From assembly GCF_009914755.1 (NCBI RefSeq), contig NC_060935.1: DNA of 64,000 bases; one strand, written 5' to 3'. Each line of letters begins with the position of its first letter. The first letter of the stretch is position 1. Shown here in pieces: positions 3,031-61,712 of the stretch. The position numbers were made by a program, and so were the translations under genes. The notes below the pieces were generated by a model. It searched no databases. It was not told where the DNA came from and saw only the letters and a list, made by a program, of their open reading frames with translations. Source of the DNA: the human T2T-CHM13v2.0 reference genome, Homo sapiens.

Positions 3031-4629
3031 AGTAACATTGTATTTGCTACCATTCGTTGAGCTTTACTAGGCTAGGCACTATGCTGAGTGCTTGACAAGG
3101 AAGTAAATGTGAAAAGCTTAGGCATCAGCTATTCTACAAATCTTTCCTGCTCTTTACACCCACTTTGCCGATTGAGTGAGCTCCACTGTGATATAGTTTG
3201 TGTCTTGTCCTCACAGCTCCCACCCTGTTTATGTCTATTGTGTCTTGTGTGAGTGTTTGACATCACTCTTCCCCATTAGAAACTCCCAGAGAGCCAAGAC
3301 CTTGTCTGTTTTCACTCCCACTACTTATCCAGGGCCTGCCTAGGTACTCAATAAACTTTAGCTTCCATTTCCCCTGGGTCCCTCTTCTGAATTAGATTAG
3401 AGCTCTCCTTGCCTCCCTGAGAGCCCTGTATCTAGGACTGGCAACAGAGGCCGTGGGGCAGGGATTTTATGCTCAACTTATGAATGTTTGAGCCATGCAG
3501 GGATGGCTTCTCATGACTGCAACGTACAGAATCCTATGTTCCCACTCCTGCAGATGACTTGGCATTTGGTGGCCAACCCCTCTTCCCCACTCAATTACCC
3601 TCGCTCCTCCTTTCAGGATGTGCTCCAATGCCACCTCCTCTGAGAAACATTTTTTTTGACTATTACAGGCTTAGATATCTAAAAATAATTGTGAGCACAG
3701 GCTGTATCATAGACTTAGATATCTAGAAATAATTATGAATCTTGTTCATTGGACTCAGCTCCCTGGCAGCTCACTGAAGCTCCGAATTCCCAGTGCCCAG
3801 TACAGAGTTAGTGATCAGCAAGTGTGACTTGAATGAATCCTGTCAAAGCAAAATAAAATCAAGCCCAAATCACTCCCACACTGGCCAGAAAAGGCCAGTA
3901 TACACCTTTGTAATTTACACAGCTGGTTTCTTTCTTAATTCATTCAAAAAATATTTATGGAGCACCAGTGTGGTACCAGGCCCTATCCTGGGTGCTGGGT
4001 GCTGAGTACTGGGGAGTCAGTGGTGAACTGGGCAGACTCATTCCTGAGTCCTGGCACTCACAGTCCAGGCCAGTGAATTCATGGACACCACAAGGCCAAG
4101 GCCAAAATAAAACCAGGAAGTTGGAAGACATAAGTCTCCCTGCCAGACACGGCCTGGAAGCCACCATCCCCAAGGTAACAGTGAGCTGTCTCTCCACAGG
4201 GTTGTATGGGTCTGGCTCCTTTTCCTGGCTGCGGCACCTGAGGGCTTAGCGGAGCAGACAAGCAGGGATGAAACCATCCTGCTTGTAAGGCAGGGCTCAC
4301 CCTCTGAACTCAGGGCCAGGGAGGACTCTGTCCACCCAGAACCAGCTGGGCTGCCCAGCTGTGGGCCGGCACCGCTGAAAGGTCCTAATTAGCTCATTTC
4401 CCCAGCCCCGTGGGCTGCAAGCAGGCTCCCTTCACCTTTTGCCCTGCTCCATCTCACTCAATTTAGCAGTTCAAGGTTCACCGTGGTGTCAGGGTGGGGA
4501 CAGGGAAAACGCCCCCTCCCTCCCACTCCCATGCCATTAAATAAAACCATTCCTTTGTGGCGGCTCCACCTGGAAGACTTTGGAATTCTTTCCCCCATCC
4601 CCAGCCTGGTTCTGATGGCTGCATCGAGG

Positions 4630-4810
4630 GGTAGGCTGTGGATTCAGAGCCCAGCTGCAAACTCTGGCTCTGTCATTTAACCAGCACCTGTGTGATCTTG
4701 AGCAAGTGACTCACCGTCTCTGACTCTCAGTATTTTTCATTATAAGGACCAACATCCACTTTACTTGGTGGTTATGAGGATTTAATGGGATAAGGCCTGT
4801 AAGGCAAGGT
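4630..4810 (+). mobile_element. MIR SINE
   Basis: TGTGTGATCTTGAGCAAGTGACTCACCGTCTCTGACTCTCAGT...GTTATGAGGATTTAATGGGATAA. Confidence 0.75.
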
Positions 4811-5522
4811 CCCAGAGCCTGGACAGAGTCTGCCCTCAGTTCAAGCCCCTGTACTCTGCTCAACTTTCCCCAGACTATAGACCCCACGGGGGTAGGCACA
4901 GTGTCTGCTTCGCTCACCATTGCATTTCCAGCATCTTCCATGGATCCTGGACATAGGAGGAGCTTCCCTACTCCTTTCTTTAATCAACAAGCATTTGCTG
5001 AAGGCCTCCCGTGTGCCAGGCCCTGGGCTCAAGACATATCTGTTTAATAAATAAATAAATAAATGCTTTCTTCTTCCCGTACCTGCTTCTTCAGGGCTGA
5101 GCCCTGGGTAAAACAGGGACCTCGGCCAAGAATTCACAGTGTGGATGGGGCATAGGACATAGGGTCGGGAGGCCAGGAAAGCTCTGGATTCTGGGTTCAG
5201 GTCTGCCCTCAGCAGCCGGCGTCTCTTAGGAAACGGGGCTTTCTTCCTTGTCCCCTACCCCATCCATGCCCACACTCCCAACCTCAGGGGCTGCTGGGTG
5301 AGCCATGAGCTCCCGACCTTCCCCTGTCACTGGCTGAGTCTGAAAACCTCCCCGTGCACCTCTCAGGTAAGGGAGTGGGGATAAATATTCCTACTTCCAG
5401 GATGGTGTGTGGTATTGGCCAGGTATGAAACAGGAATAAGAATTGTAAAGAGCCTAGCACGGCGCCTGGCCAGGGGAGGAGGTGATCATGTTAGCCTCCT
5501 TCCCTGCAGCCAGTGCCATAGC

Positions 5523-12904: not shown

Positions 12905-13040
12905 TGAGATCCTTGTTTTGTGGTCTCTTGTAGCTGCCTGTGTCCTTGTTCTGTGGTCTCTTACTTATACCTTGAGATCTTGTTCTGTGGTCTCTTACTT
13001 ATACCTTGTTCTGTGGTCTCTGAGTAGCTGCCTGTGTCCT
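12905..13040. repeat. Mosaic short-module repeat
   Basis: (C)CTTGTTYTGTGGTCTCT four times, interleaved with two copies each of GTAGCTGCCTGTGTCCT, TACTTATACCTTG and TGAGATC. Confidence 0.9.
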
Positions 13041-13199
13041 AAATCACTGCTTCCTGGATAGAAAGCTTCGGGCTGGGCCATTTCAGGCGAGCTTGTTTGG
13101 AAGGGAGTAAAAGGGTCGTGGGGAGGGAGATATCCCTGGAGCACTTCATGGCCTGGCTGACCACAGACAAGATGGGCAACCTGAGTGACCCACTGAATG

Positions 13200-13780
13200 C
13201 ATGTATTACTCAAGACTCTTCAGTTGCAAGTGACATAAACTTAACAAAATCAGAGAAGGACAATATAAAGGAAGAAAGTAAAGGAATTTATGTTGTAGGA
13301 GTTTATGTAGCAAAAGGCAGTAAACTCACTTCAGGCGTGTTGGATCCAGAAGCTCTAATTATACCACCAGGAATTTCTCTCTCTGTCTCTTGGCTCTGCA
13401 TTTTTCTGCTCTGCTTCCTTCCCAAATAGTACAACAGTGGCCACCAGCAGCACCAGGGTCTCCTTCCTATCAGATTAGCAAACCCAGGGGGAAGAGCATG
13501 CCTTTTTCTCAGGCAGTCCAGCAAAAGTTTCAGGTCAGACTTTCACTGGCCCAAATTGGGTCATGTGCCCTTTCCTGAACCAATCATTGTGTCCCAGAAG
13601 GTGAAGTCTCCTGATTGTCCAGGCCTGGGTCATGTGCCCACACCACTGGTGCTGAAGAGTGATATCTGTTCTGCTTACTTCACCTGGACCAAAAGCTGGG
13701 GAGCTTCCCAAAGGAAAATTGGAGTGCTGTCACCACAAGGGGAAAAGAAAGGGGGCTGTTGAAATAGCAGGTGCCCACAA
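13200..13780 (-). mobile_element. MLT1K-like MaLR LTR
   Basis: TGTATTACTCAAGACTCTTCAGTTGCAAGTGACA...TGGCCCAAATTGGGTCATGTGCCC..CCTGAACCAATCA...CCCAAAGGAAAATTGG. Confidence 0.7.
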
Positions 13781-14247
13781 TGGGGATTCACATCGTCCCA
13801 GCCAGTCCCTTGTGGCAAGGGGCAAAGTCAGCTAAGCCCCCATGGCATCCGAAGAAGTCAACATCTGAGCTCTCACTGTCCTTGGAGAGATGAGGTCATA
13901 TGTTCTGGGGGTAACAGCGTGGGGCTCTGGAACCATACAGGACTAGAATGAATCCTAGCTCTGCCCCTGTGACTTTGGGCCAGTTCTTCTACCTCTTCGT
14001 GGCTCAGTTTCCTCATGTGTAAGTTGAGAATAAACAGCAACAGCATAGTAGAATGCCTGGCTCGGAGGCTGACATGTGGCAGGCACCAAATGCCTAGCAG
14101 CTCTTATCTTTTTGGATGCCGTCATTCCAAGTGAGGTCCTTGTAATGGAGAAGTGACAAAACTTTGGTTCTTGGATTATATGTAGGAGGGCACCGTCTTT
14201 GGGTGGGTAAAACGTTTGAACAGTCCTGGCCCACCGAGCAATTATTT

Positions 14248-14371
14248 AGACAATTAAGATTCTTTAATGAAGAGCAAAACTGCTATTGTCTGGGCTCTGT
14301 ATGGGCCCAAGTTCCTTGACAGGCAAATAGTGGTGCTTGAAGGGTGGGGGAGCCTGGAGGTACAAGATACC
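14248..14371 (+). repeat. Inverted repeat, left arm (partner 15354-15466)
   Basis: 76/87 identity (14254-14340) to the reverse complement of the right arm, followed after an indel by 19/19 CCTGGAGGTACAAGATACC. Confidence 0.95.
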
Positions 14372-14949
14372 CGCCATTGAGGTGATTTATTAGGGACAGG
14401 GTAAGCAGATCTCTCAGAGATCTTGAGCCTGGGTGGCACTGCCCTGTCCCAACGCTCAGTCATGTGTCTTAAGTCATGCCAAGAGGTACATGGACCAGAA
14501 CGGTTCAGGAGATGTAATTTAGGTTGCTCTCTTTGGGATCTTCAACCCTCCTTGGCTCACGCTCCCGGACTGACCTATATAGGAGATCTATGGTGGTTGG
14601 TTTTCTTTTTTCAACTTTACCAATATGCTGGAAATGCCTTATCATGGCTCTGTGCCCTCAGTTTTAGAGTTTCATCCTTTTCAAGATATAAATACCTCTG
14701 GAATGGCTTCGACTTTAAGTGGTTAATAACTGTTAACACCTCTCTGGGAGTGAAGGAACTAAAACAAGATTTATAAGGGAAATGAGAAAGGGAGAGAAGG
14801 GGGCCTTGGGTATGGAAAGGGGTGGGTTCAGGCCCTACCGGTAGGGACAGTTGTTGGGACAGGGAGGCCGTGGCTGCCTCCTCCATCCTAGCTCTGCCCC
14901 CAGAGAGCCACTCACACTGCCCGGCTCCCTGTTGCCTGGGACCCTGACG

Positions 14950-15115
14950 ATGGAGGCAGCGAGTGTGATGGAAAAAGGATTTGGAAACCAGAACTTGGCG
15001 AGAATCTTGACTTTGCTACTTAAACACAGTGAGTGGCCCCAAGCAAGTGACTTCACCTCTCAGCAACTCAATGCCCTCATCTGTTAAATGGAGATCTTCC
15101 TGCCTACCTGACGGG
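14950..15115 (+). mobile_element. MIR SINE
   Basis: GGAGGCAGCGAGTGTGATGGAAA...GCAAGTGACTTCACCTCTCAG...CCTCATCTGTTAAATGGAGAT. Confidence 0.75.
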
Positions 15116-15353
15116 GTCAGTACCAGAACTTATGGATTATATTTTAAGACCCCACAGTTTGGCTGACCAGCCGAAATTTCCCCCAAAACAGTTAAGTTGC
15201 TCTAGATCTTTCTGTTTTCATGGCAGCCCCATCCCAGGGATTCCCCCATCATTCCTGGGCCACAGCCCTAACTTTAGAGACAGAGCCAGGCAGCCCATCA
15301 GACCCCTAAGGAGGGACTTGCGGGGTTAGGTCTTGGCCTGGATCTCACCATCA

Positions 15354-15466
15354 GGTATCTTGTACCTCCAGGATCAAGCACCACTATTTGGCTGTCAAGG
15401 AACTTGGGCCCACGTGGTGCCCAGACAATAGCTGCTTTGTTCTTTATTAAAGGATCTTAACTGACT
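15354..15466 (-). repeat. Inverted repeat, right arm (partner 14248-14371)
   Basis: Reverse complement TTAAGATCCTTTAATAAAGAACAAAGCAGCTATTGTCTGG...GGCCCAAGTTCCTTGACAGCCAAATAGTGGTGCTTGA matches the left arm. Confidence 0.95.
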
Positions 15467-16397
15467 GAAGAAGAAGAAGAAAAAAATCCAGCTCTTCCTT
15501 ACGAAGCTCATAATTTAATAGGTGAAATGTCAGTGAAAATCAATGCCAGGCTGTTTCCTCGCAGCCTCATTATGCCGTCCATTATGTTTTGTTTATAGTT
15601 GCTCGTTTCATTTCCTCCTCTTATTCCTCCCCTCCCCCACTCTTTGTAATAAAAGAACATTTTAAAATTTATGATGTTAAAAAGGGACATGGGCTGAGAA
15701 ATTGAGTTACGAGAAACCCAAGAGTTGTCCCTGGCAGGGCTGGGAAATCCAGCCACCGGAAGGAGGAGATGTCCCCAGCCCCAGAATTGGTGGGCCTGGG
15801 GTCAGCACATTTGAGCAGTTTGCTGACCTGGAGGGTTTTCCTGGGGGTAAGAAGGTCCTTGTTTGCCGGGTGATGGTTGGAGAGGCCCTGGGGGAGCCCA
15901 AGGGGAGAGAAGAGCAAGTGAGCCTTGGGACTCTCCTTTCGCCCTCAAGGAGAGAAACTGTGGGCTCTGTAGTCTAGCAGAACCCAGTGAGTCAAGAGAG
16001 GTGCTCCCCTGGATGTGGTCTTGTTTATGATCCTCTGAAGGCGTGGCTCAACATGCAAAGCAAAATCTTAGGAAGTGAGACCTCTGGCCCCATCAGCTGG
16101 GTCCTGCTTGTTCCTGGCCATGCTCTGGCCACCAGTGTGACCACACGGGGGATGGCCCAACCTCAGGAACAACCCAGGCTCAAGATGAAGCCATCCCCAG
16201 CCTGTAGGTCTACAGCCTTGGCCAAGCAGATGAGCAGAGGTAAATTTCTCTGGAGCCTTCCAGATGCTGTGCCTGTGGCCCCCTTCCCTGGGATTCTGCT
16301 GAATCAGCCTGGAGATCAGGGTCTGGACCAGCTCCTGCCAGGCCATCAGGAGAGAAAAGGTGTTATTTCCAGAGAGGTTGGAGGGGTTCCATTGCAG

Positions 16398-16600
16398 TGT
16401 AGGTTTCCCCAGGATCAGATCCAGAGAGGAGGAGTCTAGTGCAAGTCATTTATCTGGGAGTTGATCTCGGGAAACGTAGCATGGGAGTGGGGGAAATGAG
16501 ACAGGGATGGGTAAATTATTGAGTAGGTTACCGTTGTGGGCAACTGGGGCCTAACTCTTCTGGGAAACTCTGGGAGACAGTGTAGAACAAACCCTAGGGA
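16398..16600 (-). mobile_element. ERVL LTR16/LTR33-like fragment
   Basis: TGTAGGTTTCCCCAGGATCAGATCC..GAG...GTGCAAGTCATTTATCTGGGAG...GGGCAACTGGGGC resembles the reverse complement of old ERVL LTR 3' ends. Confidence 0.45.
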
Positions 16601-16972
16601 AAAGCCAAGGCTTTGGGGTCAAAGCTTACCCTCCTTCCATCCCTCCTCCTCTACTCTGGGCCAGGCCTGTCAAGCACAGAGACTACAAAGATGGAGAGGT
16701 TGCAGTTCTAGTCCTCAAGAACTTTCCTGCACATGGAGAAATAGAAGCTGAGAGACAGCTGATAAGAAAGGGGAAGGGAAGTTCTGCACAGGAGGCTGGC
16801 ATGGCCACTGGGAGTGCACAGGGCTGGGGGCCAACCTCGTTGTGCTCCTTCCTTGTAGCCACATGGGCCCAGAGATCAATTTTCCAAGCCTGAGTCTCAA
16901 ATGGAGGCACTCATTGCTACTCAAAAACCCTGCTGTGGCTGTAAAGGTGGCTTGGCATAGAGGTTAACTCAT

Positions 16973-17349
16973 TTTTACAGACTAAATTTTGCTGTATCTC
17001 CCCAGTTCATATGTTGAAGTCTTAGCCTCCAATATTTGGAGATGAGGCCTTCAGGTTAAATAAAGTTTTGTGGATGGGGCCCTAATCCAACAGGATTGGT
17101 GTCCTTATAAGAAGAGACACCAGGGAGCTCCCACTTTCTTTCTTCTTGCATGCACCAAGGAAAGGCCATATGAGGGCACAGCAAGAAGGCAGCTGTCCAC
17201 AAGCCAGGAAGAGAGGCCTCACTGGGAATCAACCCTGATGGGACCACAATCTTGGACTTCTGGCCTCCAGAACTGTGAGAATAAATGCCTGTTCTTTAAG
17301 TCACCAAGTCTATGGTATTTTATTCTGGCAGCCCAAACTGACGAAGATA
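16973..17349 (+). mobile_element. MLT1A-like solo LTR inserted in a MIR
   Basis: TTCATATGTTGAAGTC...GGCCCTAATCCAA..GGATTGGTGTCCTTATAAGAAGAG...GGACTTCTGGCCTCCAGAACTGTGAGAATAAAT; the MIR resumes at 17350-17475. Confidence 0.85.
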
Positions 17350-18369: not shown

Positions 18370-18680
18370 CAGACACACACAGGCACGGGTGGGTGTTCCT
18401 CACACCCAGACACACACAGGCAGTGAGATGTCCCTGTGTACCCAGACACACACAGGCACAGAGAGGTGTCCCTGAATACCCAGACACACACAGGCAGTGA
18501 GGTGTCCCTGCATACCCAGACACACACAAGCACAGCCAGGTGTCCCTGTGTACCCAGACACACACAGGCACTGATGGGTGTTCCTCATACCCAGACACAC
18601 ACAGGCAGCGAGGCGTCCCTGCATACTCAGACACACACAAGCACAGCCAGGTGTCCCTGTGTATCCAGACACACATAAGG
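18370..18680. repeat. Minisatellite, 36-38-bp unit, ~8.4 copies
   Basis: CAGACACACACA(G/A)GCA... units start at 18370, 18407, 18443, 18481, 18517, 18555, 18592, 18628 and 18666. Confidence 0.95.
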
Positions 18681-23021: not shown

Positions 23022-23458
23022 TGTATTAGTCCGTCCTTGCACTGCTATAGAAAAATACCTGAGATTGGGTAATTTATAAAGAAAAGATGTTTAATTGGCT
23101 CATGGTTCCGCAGGCTGTACAAGAAGCATGGAAGCATCTGCTTCTGGGGAGGCCTCAGGGAGATTTTCCTCATGGCGGAGGGCAAAGTGGGAGCAGCCAT
23201 CTTATGTGGCAGGAGCAGGTCCGAGAGATAGGGAAAAGGTGCTACACACTTTAAAACTGTCAGATATCATCATAATTCTATGATAAGACCATCACCAGAG
23301 CACATAGATAATTCTATGATGAGATAATGCTAAACCATTCATGAAGGATACACCCTCACGATCCAATCACAATCACCTCACATCAAGTCCCACCTCCAAC
23401 ACTGGAGATTACAACTGAACATGAGATTTGGATGGAGACACAGATCCAAACCATATCA
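23022..23458 (-). mobile_element. MSTA-like MaLR solo LTR
   Basis: TGTATTAGTCCG...ATACCTGAGATTGGGTAATTTATAAAGAAAAG...CCAAACCATATCA; TSD CTTGG at 23017-23021 and 23459-23463. Confidence 0.92.
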
Positions 23459-53269: not shown

Positions 53270-53521
53270 TATATGTATATTTTTCAGGCTTTGTACTTGG
53301 GTAATTTCAATCAATCCCTATTTTCTTAAACTAGTTGCTTCAATGTAAAACCTGAATTTTTTATTTTCACAGATAGTTATAGGTAAAAATCCAGTGGTAT
53401 CTTGCTTCATGGTAGAAATGCATACTGGCAGAATTGTGTACAGAGTGGAATATTATGAAGGTATGGGGATGAAAAGATACTGGGTGGGGTTACCTTTCTT
53501 AGAGATCTTTTAAAGTAGGAT

Positions 53522-54096
53522 TGCATTGGTTTTCTATTGCTGCAGAACAAGTTAGCACAAACGTAGTGGCTCAAACCAACACACACAAAACTATCTCCCA
53601 GTTTCTGTGGCTCAATAGTCTGGGCACAGTCTAGCTAAATCCTCTGCTTGGGCTTCAATCCAGAAGTTGCTGGAGCTGTAGTCTCATCAGAAGCTTGGCT
53701 GAGGAAAGACTCATTCCAAACTCACTGAGGTTATCAGCAGAATTTATCTTCTTATGGCCGTAGGACTGATGTCTCCATTTTCTTGCTGGCTGTCAGCAGT
53801 TAGCTGCTATCAGCTTCTAGAGGCCAACCCAGTTCTTTGCCATATGCATCCCCACCACAACAACATGACACTTTATTTCTTTAAAGCCTGCAAGGGAGTC
53901 TCCTTCTCGAATCTGCTAAGATGGAGTCTTTTATAATGAAACATAATCATTGAAGTGACATCGCCTTTCCTTTGCAACATCCTATTGGTTGAAGAAAGTC
54001 ACGTCACAGGTGTGTCCTTCACTCAAGGGGAAGGAATTCTAAAAGGACATGGCTCATGGGTGGTGGGCAGGGGTCACTTTGGGTATGTGTGCCACA
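53522..54096 (-). mobile_element. MLT1E/F-like LTR
   Basis: TGCATTGGTTTTCTATTGCTGC..AACAA...TCCAAACTCACT..GGTTATCAGCAGAATT...GTGTGCCACA. Confidence 0.8.
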
Positions 54097-54172
54097 GGAT
54101 CATTCCTCAGATGCTTCTTGGTGGAGTTTTGGCTAAGGGTAAAAGGGTGGTTTTGATGAACTTCAAGGCATT

Positions 54173-54837
54173 TGTGATGATTAATACTGAGGGTCAATTT
54201 GATTGGATTGAAGGACACATAGTATTAATCCTGGGTGTGTCTGTGTGGGTGTTGTCAAAAGAGATTAACATTTGAGTCAGTGGGCTGGGGAAGGCAGACT
54301 CACCTTTAATCTGATGGGCACAATTTAATCAGTTTCCAGCAAATAAAAAGCAGGCAGAAAAACATGAAAAGGAGAGATGGCCTAGCCTCCTAGCCTACAT
54401 GTTTCTCCCATGCTGGATGCTTCCTGCCCTTGAACATCAGACTCCAAGTTCTTCAGTTTGGGGACTCAAACTGGCTCTCCTTGCTCCTCAACTTGCAGAC
54501 AGCCTATTGTGGGACCTTAAGATCATGTAAGTTAATATTTAATAATACTTAATAAACTCTCCTTTATATGTATAAATGTATATATACACGCACATATATA
54601 CATATAGTCTAAGTTAATACTTAATAAACTCCCTATAATGTAAGTTAATACTTAATAAACTCTCATTTATATATGCAAGCATATATATGCATTGCTCATG
54701 CATTTCTTTACCACTGAAGTTGTTTTACCTTGTAACATGATGATTGGGTCTATATATATGCAAACATATTATATATATATGGGAGTTTATATATGTCCTA
54801 TTAGTTCTGTCCCCCTAAGAGAACCCTGACAAATACA
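54173..54837 (+). mobile_element. MLT2A (HERV-L 5' LTR) with rearranged TA-rich region
   Basis: TGTGATGATTAATACTGAG.GTCAA.TTGATTGGATTGAAGG...GAGATTAACATTTGAGTCAGTGG...CCTATTAGTTCTGTCC...GAACCCTGACAAATACA. Confidence 0.92.
54686..54752 (+). repeat. 67-bp perfect copy of 60196-60262 inserted in the LTR
   Basis: TATGCATTGCTCATGCATTTCTTTACCACTGAAGTTGTTTTACCTTGTAACATGATGATTGGGTCTA is identical at both sites. Confidence 0.97.
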
Positions 54838-56599: not shown

Positions 56600-57024
56600 T
56601 GTATTAGTCTGTTCTTGCATATATATATATATAGAAATATATAAAGAAATACCTGAGACTGGGTAATTTATAAGAAAAGAGGTTGCATTGGCTCATGGTT
56701 CTGTAGGCTGTGCAGGAAGCATGGCAGCATTTGCTTCTGGAGAGGCCTCAGGGAGCTTTTACTCATAGTGGGAGGCCAAGCGGAAGCAGGTGTCTTACAT
56801 GGTAGGAGCAGTACCGAGAGAGTGGGGAGAGGTGCCACATGTTTTAAACAATGAGATCTCATGAAAATTCACTATCACAAGGACAGTACCAAGAGGGGAT
56901 GGTGCAAAACTATTCATGAGAGACCACCCCTGATCCAATCAGCTCCCACCAGGCCCCACCTCCAACACTGGGGATAACAATTTGACATGAGATTTGGGCG
57001 GGGACACAGATACAAACCATATCA
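56600..57024 (-). mobile_element. MSTA-like solo LTR
   Basis: TGTATTAGTCTGTTCTTGCA...ATACCTGAGACTGGGTAATTTATAAG...CAAACCATATCA; TSD TCAGG at 56595-56599 and 57025-57029. Confidence 0.92.
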
Positions 57025-57660: not shown

Positions 57661-58846
57661 TCTGAGAAGGAGCTATTTAAGCCAAGAATCAGCAAGAAAA
57701 AAAGTCAGGTCTTCAAAGTCAAGGAAAGAAGGAGCGTTTATATGAGATAGATTTGTAAAGCATGGTGGCTGGCACATAGAAAGTGCTCCGTCAATGGGGA
57801 CTGTGACTTCTATTGGATTTCCGATCCGGGAGGTGGTGAACAAGGAAGCCTCAAGGTCAAAGGCTGTTGATCACCACAGCTGTTACCAAGTGGTTTAGGG
57901 AAACTGCCTGAGCCTGAGAGCAAGGCAAGCCTGTGTTAATTTCTGTTATTGAGTCATTGCCCTTGTTGCTATGTGGAGAGGGCTAGAATGTTTTTATGCT
58001 GGGCTCCGCGGGGAAGAGGGTGGTGATTTCTGTGGCTGGTGGTTGGATGTTCCCCGATCGCCTTTATGTCTCCCTCCTTCCCTCTCAGTCCTTTTCTTCA
58101 CCCAACAAAAGACTTCAGAGGCCAGGAGGAGAGGGACTCACAGCAATTATATTAACACCAGGCGTGGGTAGTTTGTAGAGTGCTTTCACGTTTCATCTAC
58201 TTCATCATCAGAACAGCTCTCTAAGGGAGAGGAGGGGGAATCTATGATCCTGTCAATTTCACAGCTGAGAAACTGAGTCCCAGAGAAGTTATTGAGGAAT
58301 TTACGAAGTTCTGGGATGTCAGGAGGGTTTACTGTCCTAGTTGAAGAGCCCAGGAAGACCTCATCTTTTTGCTCTTTGTGTGCGTTGAGGAAGGAGCGCA
58401 TGAGTGAGGGTAGATGGCTCTGACAGGGAGACACTGGAAAGGTCAACGCAGTAGTTAACCAGGCCATGCTAAGCACATCCTGGGGCCAACCCACTTGCCT
58501 GCCAGAAAAGGCCACATGTCTCCACAGTATGACAAGGACATTCCTCTCTACAGGTTATGCCAACCTCAAGACAGAGAAGAAACCAAGTGGGATTATGAGC
58601 TGACACAATGAGACACAGGCTTATAAACCTGCTCCTTGTGGTCCCCTGGAAGGCTGCGTTCATCAGAGTCTCTCTTCTCTAATGTTTTTCTCCACTAGTC
58701 CCCTGGACATCAATCAACTTGGCTCTGTCAAGCGTCTCAGCCTCCTGCATGACCACTTGCCTTTCCTTCTCCTCTCTCCTGCCCTTCCTAGGGGCTTCAC
58801 AGGGACAGGAAGCCAATCCTCTTGCTCATTTCTTTCTTCCTTCTTG

Positions 58847-60000: not shown

Positions 60001-61712
60001 ATCACCATCTGCCAGTGAAACACTTCCACATCTTGTATCCTCAGCTCAAACCACCTCCTCCCCAGAGCCTTCTGTGATTTCTTCATTGAACTAAATTACT
60101 CCCTCCTCTCCCTTAGAGAGCTTTTCTGGTGATGAAGTAGGAGATGAGAAGTGAAAGTACTTTACAAACTACCCATGCCGGGTGTCAACTAAATGTATGC
60201 ATTGCTCATGCATTTCTTTACCACTGAAGTTGTTTTACCTTGTAACATGATGATTGGGTCTAAAGCCCCAAGGCTGTCCTGGGCCTGATTCTGCTGTATC
60301 CTCAGCATTTTGTAAAGAACACAGTGGGTGCTCAAATCCATCTTTAGGGGTGATCAGTGAGCTTGTGCATGAGACACAATGTGTAAGGGACTGGGGAAGG
60401 AAAGGAGGCAGAGATATGGATGGGTGTGCAGGGGGGAGCTAGTGGCATCACTTGGATGATCCAGTGTGTGTACATGACAAGGCACATCTGGCGAGGTGCG
60501 CCTACCTAGAGAGCCAGGTGGCCCTCATCCCTCAGAGCTGAAAAGGCCACAGCCCTTCCAGCTTGGGGAATGGCCTTAGCAGCTGGCTCCCAGGGAGGGG
60601 CTCATCTGTGACAGCAAAGCCAGCAGCCTGGCTATTAGAGAGCAGCCAGCATGGGGCTGCAACCCAATGGAAAAATAAATCCCCATCATGCCAGACATGC
60701 TTGCTTCCAGACTGGGGGAGTTAATAAAGTGACTCTGAGGTGGTTTGGAGCCACTGTGGAGGGGCTGCGGAGGAATTTTCTCATTTCTCGTAAAACTTTA
60801 ATTAGTGTTAGTCACTTCAAGTGATTACGGGGACTTAAAATAGCCACCGGCTGGGAGCTTTAATGACACATACGAGGCCATTTTGTTTGTTTCTACAGGG
60901 AGCTGAGCTGGGCTTGTAATAGACACACATTTGTCTCCTCGCTGGACCGTGAGCAACTGGGAGCTCTGTGAAGGCAGGGACAAGTAGAGCTTGTCTGTGT
61001 GTCCCCATGATTGGCACAGAGCCTGAGACATCAGAGAGGCACCACAAGCCTAAATGGACTGCCACTCACTGGCTAAGGGGACCTGTCAGCTCCAACCCAG
61101 TCCCTGGTTTATTGCATTCTCTAGAACTTCTTCCCCAAGTGTTTACTTTTAATCTGTTTTTTCCCACTAGAATATTAGTGTTCTGCTCACTGCTGTATTC
61201 CCAGTGCCCAGATGTAGTAGGAGCTGAATGGAAGGATGGATGAGATGGGACACCATCTTCCAAAAGTGCCACTGGGAGTCCCAGGAGGGCACCTGTATTG
61301 CTGCCACCCGTGGACCTGCCTTCCAGATGGCCGAGACCTGCTTCCAACCAATTTAGTTTTGTTTGTTCCACAAATTCCTCTGCAGGCACAGCCATGCTTC
61401 CCTCCTCCCCCTGCCCATAACACCCTGAGAAACATCCTCTGAGAAAAGGATCCCAGAGTAGTCACTGATGCTGTAGTATGAATTTCAGGAAGTGTCTTGC
61501 CTCTCTAGGTTGTCTCTAAGTCTCCACTCTTATCATGGGAGGACAGGCTTTGCTGTCTTTGTGAATTGATCTTGGATGTCAAAAAGGGAGGAGGAGGGTT
61601 TAGTCCCAGCTCTCCCTGAGGGGGGTTTAGTATGTAATGGTGAAGATCATAGGTTTGGAGTCAGGCTGTCCGGGTTCAAATCCTGGCTCTGCTGTTTCCT
61701 AGCTTTCTCTCT

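What the first reader, a model, noticed from the sequence alone, without database searches (positions are those of the whole stretch)
14248..15466. Unexplained ~110-bp inverted repeat pair bracketing ~1 kb
Seen: 14254-14340 matches the reverse complement of 15374-15460 at 76/87. After an indel (AGGGTGGGGGAG vs T), 19/19 more bases match. The longest block, 39 nt from TGGGCCCAAGTTCC to GTGCTTGA, has one mismatch. I do not recognise the arms as any Alu, MIR, L2, LTR or MER, and I see no TSD. Both arms keep a SOX-type ACAATAG and a MEIS-type TGACAG; only the right arm has a CACGTG E-box. In a + strand transcript, 6 of the 11 mismatches would be G-U wobbles, versus 2 on the - strand; this is suggestive, not significant. 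Inference, three options: (a) a long-range RNA duplex (ADAR substrate or splicing loop) in an intronic/lncRNA transcript; (b) an inverted duplicated enhancer homogenised by gene conversion; (c) recombination arms that let the ~980-bp spacer, which contains a MIR, invert recurrently. This is the best candidate for an undescribed element in the window.
Basis: partly seen in the sequence, partly recalled or inferred. Interest (0 to 1): 0.8.

Follow-up and report, generated by a model that had tools for sequence, protein, structure and literature searches.

The report
Two-copy inverted duplication upstream of ALX4
A real pair of about 130-base inverted repeats one kilobase apart, found nowhere else in the human genome, is most likely the relic of an old local copying accident, not a working element, although its inner half is oddly well preserved.

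Summary
The inverted repeat is real. The arms are 14242-14385 and 15345-15472, about 1 kb apart (E 8.7e-27 within the window).

Genome searches with either arm found only the two arms. A control repeat of equal length gave 1942 candidates. So the arms are not a young or middle-aged transposon family. A very old, diverged family cannot be excluded, because the search barely finds such repeats.

I found no target-site duplication, no homology beyond the arms, no Rfam match on the arms and no Pfam match in the frames scanned.

One new observation: divergence is very uneven. The outer 60 columns hold 14 mismatches and the inner 67 hold 1 (Fisher p 1e-4 to 2e-3).

My best reading is an old local inverted duplication made by a replication template switch, with the inner part later homogenised or constrained. 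No function is shown. RNA duplex, enhancer pair and inversion switch are untested; the inversion switch is disfavoured.

The same window holds two more local two-copy duplicates, so the kind looks ordinary.

The parts
14242..14385 (.). Left arm of the inverted repeat. Firm homology runs 14242-14371; the last 14 nt are weakly aligned.
15345..15472 (.). Right arm, the reverse complement of the left arm. Firm homology runs 15354-15472.
14242..14301 (.). Outer zone of the left arm (partner 15413-15472): 14 mismatches in 60 columns, no indel, K2P 0.29 (0.19 without the 6-nt cluster).
14302..14371 (.). Inner zone of the left arm (partner 15354-15412): a 39-nt block with 1 mismatch, one indel, then a 19/19 block.
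14341..14352 (.). G-rich 12 nt (AGGGTGGGGGAG) present only in the left arm; the right arm has a single T at 15373.
15413..15418 (.). Cluster of 5 mismatches in 6 nt (left partner 14296-14301). In the right arm it completes the palindrome CCACGTGG inside GGGC..GCCC (15406-15422) and creates the E-box. I read it as one multinucleotide event, possibly a short template switch (inference).
14386..15344 (.). Spacer. No internal inverted homology and no Pfam domain in the 6 longest of 19 open frames.
15011..15133 (+). Old interspersed-repeat core inside the spacer (MIR-like by recall). It is the only part of the unit with other matches in the genome and window.
15467..15486 (+). Purine tract (GAA)4GA7, starting 6 nt inside the outer end of the right arm and running 14 nt beyond it. 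It may have been a replication-stalling site or a degenerate A-tail (inference only).

Best explanation
This is a locus-specific inverted duplication. About 130 bp was copied once, in reverse-complement orientation, to a site about 1 kb away. The most likely cause is a replication template switch (a FoSTeS/MMBIR-type templated insertion, a larger version of the four-point template-switch events described in human). The purine tract at the right arm's outer end hints that the right arm is the copy, but this is not shown. The arms then diverged. The inner 60-70 bp were later made alike again by arm-to-arm copying (short-tract gene conversion or template switching), or they mutated less. Nothing found here shows a present function. 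Shown: the repeat, its two-copy status, its boundaries, the lack of transposon hallmarks and the uneven divergence. Inferred: the mechanism, the direction of copying, the homogenisation and the age. With recalled neutral rates of 1-2.2e-9 per site per year, the outer zone suggests tens of millions of years up to about 100 My, and the inner zone a few My with a very wide error.
For: Only two copies exist in the 3.1-Gb assembly: 2 of 2 first-look candidates with either arm as query, at E up to 10 for the right arm. A 35-nt core pattern with up to 3 mismatches hits 2 places, and the reversed control hits 0. A 26-nt pattern gives one extra hit, but the best alignment of either arm to its 3-kb locus scores 39 against 145 for arm to arm. 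An interspersed repeat of the same length used as positive control gives 1942 candidates. Homology stops at the arm ends: the outer and inner flanks score no better than shuffles (159, 265 and 61 of 300 shuffles reach the observed score). There is no TSD. No Pfam family matches the 6 longest of 19 frames, and no Rfam family matches the arms. Arm-to-arm identity of 88% over 127 ungapped columns is too high for two independent copies of an ancient family. The same window holds two more local two-copy duplicates: an 86% inverted pair at 58152/60188, and a 69/70 direct copy at 54683/60193 inserted in a TA-rich tract with a flanking direct repeat of about 21 nt. So local templated copying has happened repeatedly here. 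Template switching is documented to create inverted repeats in human (PMC5453318, passages read) and to homogenise their arms (PMC8604942, passages read).
Against: No outgroup sequence was available, so the ancestral state, the direction of copying and the junction microhomology are all untested. Published short template-switch events involve tens of bases at short range (spacers up to 70 bp in PMC8604942). This case needs 130 nt copied over 1 kb. The near-identity of the inner zone (1 mismatch in 67 columns against 14 in 60) is what purifying selection on both copies would also give, and the locus lies in the repeat-poor region upstream of a developmental gene (hub annotation). At about 77% identity in the outer zone, homology-dependent gene conversion would be inefficient (recalled knowledge). 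In a sample of 20 x 10 kb from other chromosomes I found 0 comparable low-copy inverted pairs, so the base rate is poorly known.
Confidence: 0.55

Rival explanations
1. The arms are a mirrored pair of cis-regulatory modules. A regulatory block in the ALX4 upstream region was duplicated in inverted orientation, and the inner 58-67 bp of both copies are held by purifying selection as transcription-factor sites, while the outer part drifts.
For: Divergence is strongly uneven: 14/60 outer vs 1/67 inner mismatches, Fisher p 1.3e-4, or 2.4e-3 with the 5-mismatch cluster counted once, and permutation p 0.002-0.014. Identical blocks separated by an indel are typical of constrained non-coding alignments (general knowledge). 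The window is only 18% masked and lies upstream of ALX4 (hub annotation).
Against: No RefSeq functional element overlaps the arms; the nearest is 4346-4845 (hub annotation). Conservation could not be tested. Identity of 57/58 between paralogous copies over tens of My would need ultraconserved-level constraint on both. The short SOX, MEIS and E-box words are expected by chance, and the E-box sits in a mutation cluster in one arm only. The boundary between the zones was chosen after seeing the data.
Confidence: 0.12
2. The arms are the terminal inverted repeats of a single, very low-copy or very ancient non-autonomous DNA transposon of about 1.23 kb.
For: The architecture fits: about 130-bp inverted termini around about 1 kb. 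The genome search is nearly blind to ancient families: only 3 hits for the MIR-like core and none for a second old-repeat fragment. So a strongly diverged family cannot be excluded. With one choice of ends, the flanking dinucleotides read TA and TG, which is weak.
Against: There is no TSD of 5 nt or more. Neither the arms nor the spacer has another copy, apart from the nested old-repeat core. No transposase remnant appears in 6 of 19 frames scanned. If the element were old enough for its family to have decayed beyond detection, its own two ends should be far less than 88% alike. If it were young enough for 88%, sister copies should be found as easily as in the control.
Confidence: 0.08
3. The right arm is a retroposed fragment. 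An antisense transcript crossing the left arm was reverse-transcribed and inserted about 1 kb away, leaving the A-rich tail.
For: In + orientation the right arm's homology ends within a purine/A-rich tract, (GAA)4GA7, at 15467-15486.
Against: No flanking direct repeat lies around the right arm plus tail. The tract is GAA-rich and not pure A. No transcript is annotated (hub).
Confidence: 0.06
4. The pair acts as a functional long-range RNA duplex (an ADAR or Dicer substrate, or a splicing loop) in an unannotated transcript.
For: In the predicted MFE of the 1245-nt unit the arms pair with each other on either strand (115 and 103 inter-arm pairs). Duplex energies are -182 and -173 kcal/mol, against a mean of -58 for 100 shuffles. 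Seven of 15 mismatches are G-U compatible on the + strand against 3 on the - strand. Expressed intergenic inverted duplicates are reported as a class (PMC5398296, abstract and sections 6 and 12 read).
Against: No gene or lncRNA is annotated in the window (hub). Rfam has no match on the arms. Any inverted repeat gives such a duplex. A 7 vs 3 split of 10 transitions is not significant. That paper limited spacers to 1000 nt or less because longer ones are less likely to form hairpins.
Confidence: 0.04
5. The arms are recombination substrates that flip the ~1-kb spacer recurrently (an inversion switch).
For: The geometry alone fits: inverted arms around a spacer.
Against: The longest uninterrupted identity is 21 nt, and overall identity is 79% with gaps or 88% without. 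That is far below the roughly 200 bp of near-identity that efficient mammalian homologous recombination needs (recalled knowledge). Only one assembly was available.
Confidence: 0.02

Closest known systems
Template-switch inverted copies in the human genome (four-point model; Loytynoja and Goldman 2017, PMC5453318)
   Same: A nearby stretch is copied in reverse complement and creates a new inverted repeat, sometimes with later correction of arm mismatches. The 5-in-6 mismatch cluster that completes a local palindrome in the right arm looks like a small event of this type.
   Different: Published events are tens of bases at very short range, and were shown by human-chimp or human-human comparison. 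Here the copy is about 130 nt, the distance is about 1 kb, the event is old, and no outgroup was available.
Intergenic inverted duplicates catalogued with Inverted Repeats Finder (Chen et al. 2017, PMC5398296)
   Same: It is a non-repetitive intergenic inverted duplicate with arms within the 10-10,000 nt definition. Its hairpin-forming potential is like that discussed there.
   Different: Most catalogued items are tiny (minimum score 20), and spacers were capped at 1000 nt. This pair has a spacer of 982-1033 nt, at or beyond that cap, and unusually long arms. I did not check whether it is in their tables.
Non-autonomous DNA transposon with long terminal inverted repeats
   Same: Inverted ends bracket about 1 kb of non-coding DNA.
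   Different: No TSD, no sister copies at detectable identity, and no transposase trace.
Large sex-chromosome palindromes kept alike by arm-to-arm gene conversion (e.g. PMC8600007; search listing only)
   Same: Inverted arms around a spacer, with part of the arms much more alike than expected from the rest.
   Different: Those arms are kilobases to megabases long, more than 99% identical and carry genes. These are about 130 bp, 79-88% identical and carry no gene.
Inverted Alu pairs as double-stranded RNA and ADAR substrates (recalled knowledge)
   Same: Arm length (about 100-300 nt), arm identity (about 80-90%) and spacing (about 1 kb) are in the same range.
   Different: The arms are not SINEs or any detectable multicopy repeat, and no host transcript is annotated.

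Membership tests
DNA transposon / MITE with terminal inverted repeats | Terminal inverted repeats | tested here: met
   Arms 14242-14385 and 15345-15472.
DNA transposon / MITE with terminal inverted repeats | Target-site duplication flanking the element | tested here: not met
   No exact direct repeat of 5 nt or more within 30 nt of either end.
DNA transposon / MITE with terminal inverted repeats | Other copies of the family in the genome | tested here: inconclusive
   None found with the arms, the spacer or core patterns, while a control repeat gave 1942 candidates. But the search barely detects ancient repeats, and no Dfam library was available.
DNA transposon / MITE with terminal inverted repeats | Transposase coding remnant (autonomous copy only) | tested here: not met
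   0 Pfam families at E up to 1 in the 6 longest of 19 open frames of 45 aa or more.
Template-switch / templated inverted duplication | Reverse-complement copy of a nearby unique sequence, with sharp ends | tested here: met
   The two copies are the only ones in the genome. Flanks are no more alike than shuffles.
Template-switch / templated inverted duplication | Ancestral state without the copy, and microhomology at the switch points | not testable with these tools
   No other vertebrate genome can be reached with these tools.
Template-switch / templated inverted duplication | Short range, as in described events | tested here: inconclusive
   The distance is about 1 kb and the copy about 130 nt. 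Described short events are tens of bases (PMC5453318 passages; spacers up to 70 bp in PMC8604942).
Inverted-SINE dsRNA (ADAR substrate) | Arms are SINE copies | tested here: not met
   The arms match nothing else in the window or the genome.
Inverted-SINE dsRNA (ADAR substrate) | Lies in a transcript and carries A-to-I edits | not testable with these tools
   The hub annotation lists no gene in the window. No expression or editing data were available.
Inversion-mediating inverted repeats (NAHR) | Long tracts of near-identity between the arms | tested here: not met
   The longest perfect tract is 21 nt; identity is 79% with gaps, 88% without. The threshold is from recall.
Inversion-mediating inverted repeats (NAHR) | Both spacer orientations seen in populations or species | not testable with these tools
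   Only one assembly is held.
Duplicated conserved non-coding element / enhancer pair | Cross-species constraint and enhancer activity of both copies | not testable with these tools
   The only indirect hint is the 14/60 vs 1/67 mismatch contrast. No RefSeq functional element overlaps (hub).

The most novel reading that the evidence does not exclude
The inner 58-67 bp of both arms are actively kept alike. In one version, they are a mirror-image pair of constrained regulatory modules in the ALX4 upstream region. In the other, concerted evolution acts on a short, 1-kb-spaced inverted repeat far below the size at which arm-to-arm conversion is usually considered. Either way the pair would be a small autosomal 'micro-palindrome' under maintenance and not a decaying relic.
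Probability: 0.13. Interest if true: 0.55.

Novelty: new member of a known kind. Interest (0 to 1): 0.22.

Why it matters
As it stands, this is a clean example of a unique-sequence inverted duplicate, a kind of structure that replication template switching is known to produce. On its own it matters little. It would matter if comparative data showed that the near-identical inner block is conserved, or repeatedly homogenised, in both arms. That would give either a paired regulatory module for ALX4, a limb and craniofacial patterning gene, or evidence that short, widely spaced inverted repeats undergo concerted evolution in mammals. The same window holds three independent local two-copy duplicates. 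This suggests that small templated copies may be a commoner source of human non-coding novelty than repeat annotation shows.

Tried and rejected
- **Independent insertions of a known repeat:** rejected. The arms find only each other, and they are too alike for two copies of an ancient family.
- **Extra 26-nt hit at chr11:24998619:** a chance match. The best alignment of either arm to its 3-kb locus scores 39, against 145 for arm to arm.
- a 39-place pattern with a set letter (I sent a shorter one), and a 40-place pattern with Ns (not resent).
- **Wider palindrome:** none. The flanks and the spacer halves align no better than shuffles.
- **TSD search:** only the 5-mers TTATT/ATTTA, part of ATTATTTAG vs ATTTATTAG (7/9), around the left arm alone. 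I judged this chance in AT-rich sequence.
- **Rfam on 13000-17000:** 3 weak matches, all below their gathering scores and all off the arms.
- **Coding remnants:** 0 Pfam hits in 6 of 19 frames.
- **21-nt core in other collections:** 0 and 0 in the prokaryote genome contigs and the viral contigs. These were long shots for contaminant or viral sources.
- **Base rate:** a first fetch gave 20 x 10 kb instead of 20 kb each. So the base rate rests on 200 kb plus the window.
- **Literature:** 3 papers hold both 'ALX4' and 'inverted repeat', and none concerns this locus by title. The 15 listed papers on ALX4, enhancers and conserved non-coding elements show nothing on it by title or abstract start. 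One paper reading failed on a two-letter term and was resent.

Full report
**1. Observation**

The repeat finder gives two adjoining inverted pairs: 14242-14340 / 15374-15472 (99 nt, 85%) and 14343-14371 / 15354-15382. A gapped local alignment joins them into one pair of arms, 14242-14385 and 15345-15472, with score 145. In a blastn of the window against itself the pair scores 119 bits, E 8.7e-27, at 79.2% over 130 columns with gaps counted.

Over the 127 ungapped columns there are 15 mismatches (88.2% identity; 10 transitions, 5 transversions; K2P 0.13) and three indel sites.
- 76/87 in 14254-14340;
- the 12-nt vs 1-nt indel followed by 19/19;
- the 39-nt block with one mismatch;
- the shared ACAATAG and TGACAG words, and CACGTG in the right arm only;

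**2. Copy number, with controls**

The tools hold the window's own 3.1-Gb assembly.
- With the left arm as query (145 nt), the first look found 2 candidates: itself and the right arm.
- With the right arm (141 nt, E up to 10), it again found 2.
- A 35-nt core pattern with up to 3 mismatches hits the two arms only, and the reversed control hits 0.
- A 26-nt pattern adds one place, chr11:24998619. The best alignment of either arm to its 3-kb locus scores 39, against 145 for arm to arm, so it is chance.
- The 973-nt spacer finds only three foreign places. All fall on query 653-715, which is window 15033-15095, an old interspersed-repeat core. Calling it MIR is my recall.

As a positive control, a 141-nt piece of an interspersed repeat at 54395-54535 gave 1942 first-look candidates. 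Forty were scored: itself, and 39 others at 91-94% identity.

As a warning, a second fragment at 58140-58285, which I take from recall to be MIR-like, found no family members at all. So the search excludes young and middle-aged families but not strongly diverged ancient ones.

That caveat does not rescue the reading of two chance insertions. Two independent copies of an ancient family would not be 88% alike with a 57/58 inner stretch.

**3. Anatomy**

- Homology ends sharply. The 300-nt outer flanks, the two halves of the spacer and the 150-nt inner flanks align no better than shuffles (159, 265 and 61 of 300 shuffles reach the observed score).
- No exact direct repeat of 5 nt or more lies at the ends of the unit or around the right arm, with or without its purine tract. 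Around the left arm there are only two AT-rich 5-mers.
- The arms match nothing else in the 64-kb window, even with 7-nt words.
- Rfam gives three sub-threshold matches in 13000-17000, none on the arms.
- Of 19 stop-to-stop frames of 45 aa or more, I scanned the 6 longest against Pfam, with 0 matches at E up to 1.
- The purine tract (GAA)4GA7 at 15467-15486 begins 6 nt inside the outer end of the right arm and runs 14 nt past it.

**4.

The outer 60 columns carry 14 mismatches and no indel. The inner 67 carry 1 mismatch, with the indels.
- Fisher's exact p is 1.3e-4.
- Five of the outer mismatches sit in 6 adjacent columns (14296-14301 / 15413-15418). Counted as one event, p is 2.4e-3.
- Permutation of mismatch positions gives 0.002 to 0.014 for so long a nearly clean run.
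- The boundary was chosen after looking, so these values flatter the effect.
- K2P is 0.29 for the outer zone (0.19 without the cluster) and 0.015 for the inner zone.

The cluster itself turns GGGC-TCTGTAT-GGGCCC (left arm) into a version whose + strand reads GGGCCCACGTGGTGCCC. That is the palindrome CCACGTGG inside GGGC..GCCC. A run of changes that completes a local palindrome is the signature of a short template switch (PMC5453318, passages read). On that reading, the right-arm E-box is a by-product of one mutation. This is inference.

**5. Mechanism**

The simplest account is a single local templated copy in inverted orientation, followed by decay. It explains the two-copy status, the sharp ends, the lack of a TSD and of family members, and the intermediate divergence.

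Replication template switching is documented to create inverted repeats in human (PMC5453318). It is also documented to homogenise the arms of existing inverted repeats (PMC8604942, abstract and passages). The events shown there are much shorter and closer, with spacers up to 70 bp.

The clean inner zone then needs one further step. It could be a later patch of arm-to-arm copying. Such a tract of about 60-85 nt is within the usual range of mammalian conversion tracts by my recall. Or it could be lower substitution because of constraint. I cannot separate these without other species.

With recalled neutral rates, the outer zone implies an origin tens of millions of years ago, possibly about 100 My. 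The inner zone implies only a few My, with a very wide error because it rests on one substitution.

**6.

(a) RNA duplex. Either strand would form the duplex, at -182 and -173 kcal/mol against a mean of -58 for 100 shuffles, and the arms pair in the MFE of the whole 1245-nt unit. Any inverted repeat does this. No transcript is annotated (hub), and the wobble asymmetry (7 vs 3 of 10 transitions) is not significant.

(b) Duplicated enhancer homogenised by conversion. The uneven divergence is compatible with this. However, no functional element overlaps the arms (hub), and conservation is untested.

(c) Inversion switch. The longest uninterrupted identity is 21 nt, which by recalled requirements of mammalian homologous recombination is far too short.

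**7. How ordinary is it?**

The same window holds two more local duplicates that are also two-copy in the genome.
- An inverted pair, 58152-58244 / 60092-60188, at about 85-86%.
- A direct copy, 54683-54752 = 60193-60262, at 69/70. The 54.68-kb copy sits in the TA-rich middle of the control interspersed repeat. It is flanked by a direct repeat of about 21 nt (20 of 22 columns), which looks like a recent templated insertion.

In 20 x 10 kb taken from other chromosomes I used the filter of arms 80 nt or more, 90 bits or more, and a gap of 20-2500. I counted only pairs with no other hit in the pool. That gave 0 low-copy inverted pairs, 1 dispersed direct low-copy pair and 2 tandem-type arrays (one of them listed in three registers). 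One more tandem-type pair had 2-3 other hits in the pool.

The base rate is therefore poorly fixed. But a second unique inverted pair in the same 64 kb argues that this is a recurring by-product and not a singular device. Chen et al. (PMC5398296; abstract and sections 6 and 12 read) report millions of mostly tiny inverted duplicates in human, enriched in non-repetitive DNA. They capped spacers at 1000 nt, so this pair sits at the edge of their definition.

**8. In print**

Three papers in the held library contain both 'ALX4' and 'inverted repeat', and none concerns this locus by title. The 15 listed papers on ALX4, enhancers and conserved non-coding elements show nothing on it in title or abstract start. 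I did not read their supplements. Tables of conserved elements or enhancers there could cover these coordinates.

**9. Verdict**

It is best read as an old local inverted duplication with no demonstrated function (confidence 0.55).

The unexplained residue is the almost unchanged inner block. If comparative data show that it is conserved or homogenised in both arms, the finding would rise to a moderately interesting regulatory or concerted-evolution case (probability about 0.13). Otherwise it is ordinary.

Noticed in passing
window 58152-58244 and 60092-60188: A second inverted pair: about 85-86% identity over 88-97 nt, with a spacer of about 1.9 kb. The genome search finds only these two places. 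The arms look like a diverged MIR-type fragment (my recall) but are closer to each other than such copies normally are, which suggests another local inverted duplication.
   Followed up: partly
window 54683-54752 and 60193-60262: A direct copy, 69 of 70 identical, found at only these two places in the genome. The 54.68-kb copy lies in the TA-rich centre of an interspersed repeat and is flanked by a direct repeat of about 21 nt, 20 of 22 columns. It looks like a recent templated insertion with target duplication. It lies 28 nt beyond the RefSeq enhancer 53456-54655 listed by the hub. The donor block starts 5 nt after the right arm of the second inverted pair (60188 | 60193).
   Followed up: partly
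window 18370-18675: A minisatellite with period 38 (8.3 copies, 79% matches) and a higher-order period of 111 (2.8 copies, 88%). The unit is CA-rich and GC-rich.
   Followed up: no
window 23046-23458 and 56640-57024: A direct match of 413 columns at 74.8%, probably two copies of an old interspersed repeat. It was not identified.
   Followed up: no
window 16162-16234 (+) and 13451-13584 (-): Two weak Rfam matches well below their gathering scores: mir-132 (23.4 bits vs 52, E 0.13) and WT1-AS_4 (24.3 bits vs 60, E 0.097). Most likely chance.
   Followed up: no
L011 7605-7731 and 9480-9606 (G000:C6:10000001-10010000): In the base-rate sample, a dispersed direct pair of 129 columns at 90.7%, 1.7 kb apart, with no other match in the 264-kb pool. 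This is another candidate local low-copy duplication.
   Followed up: no
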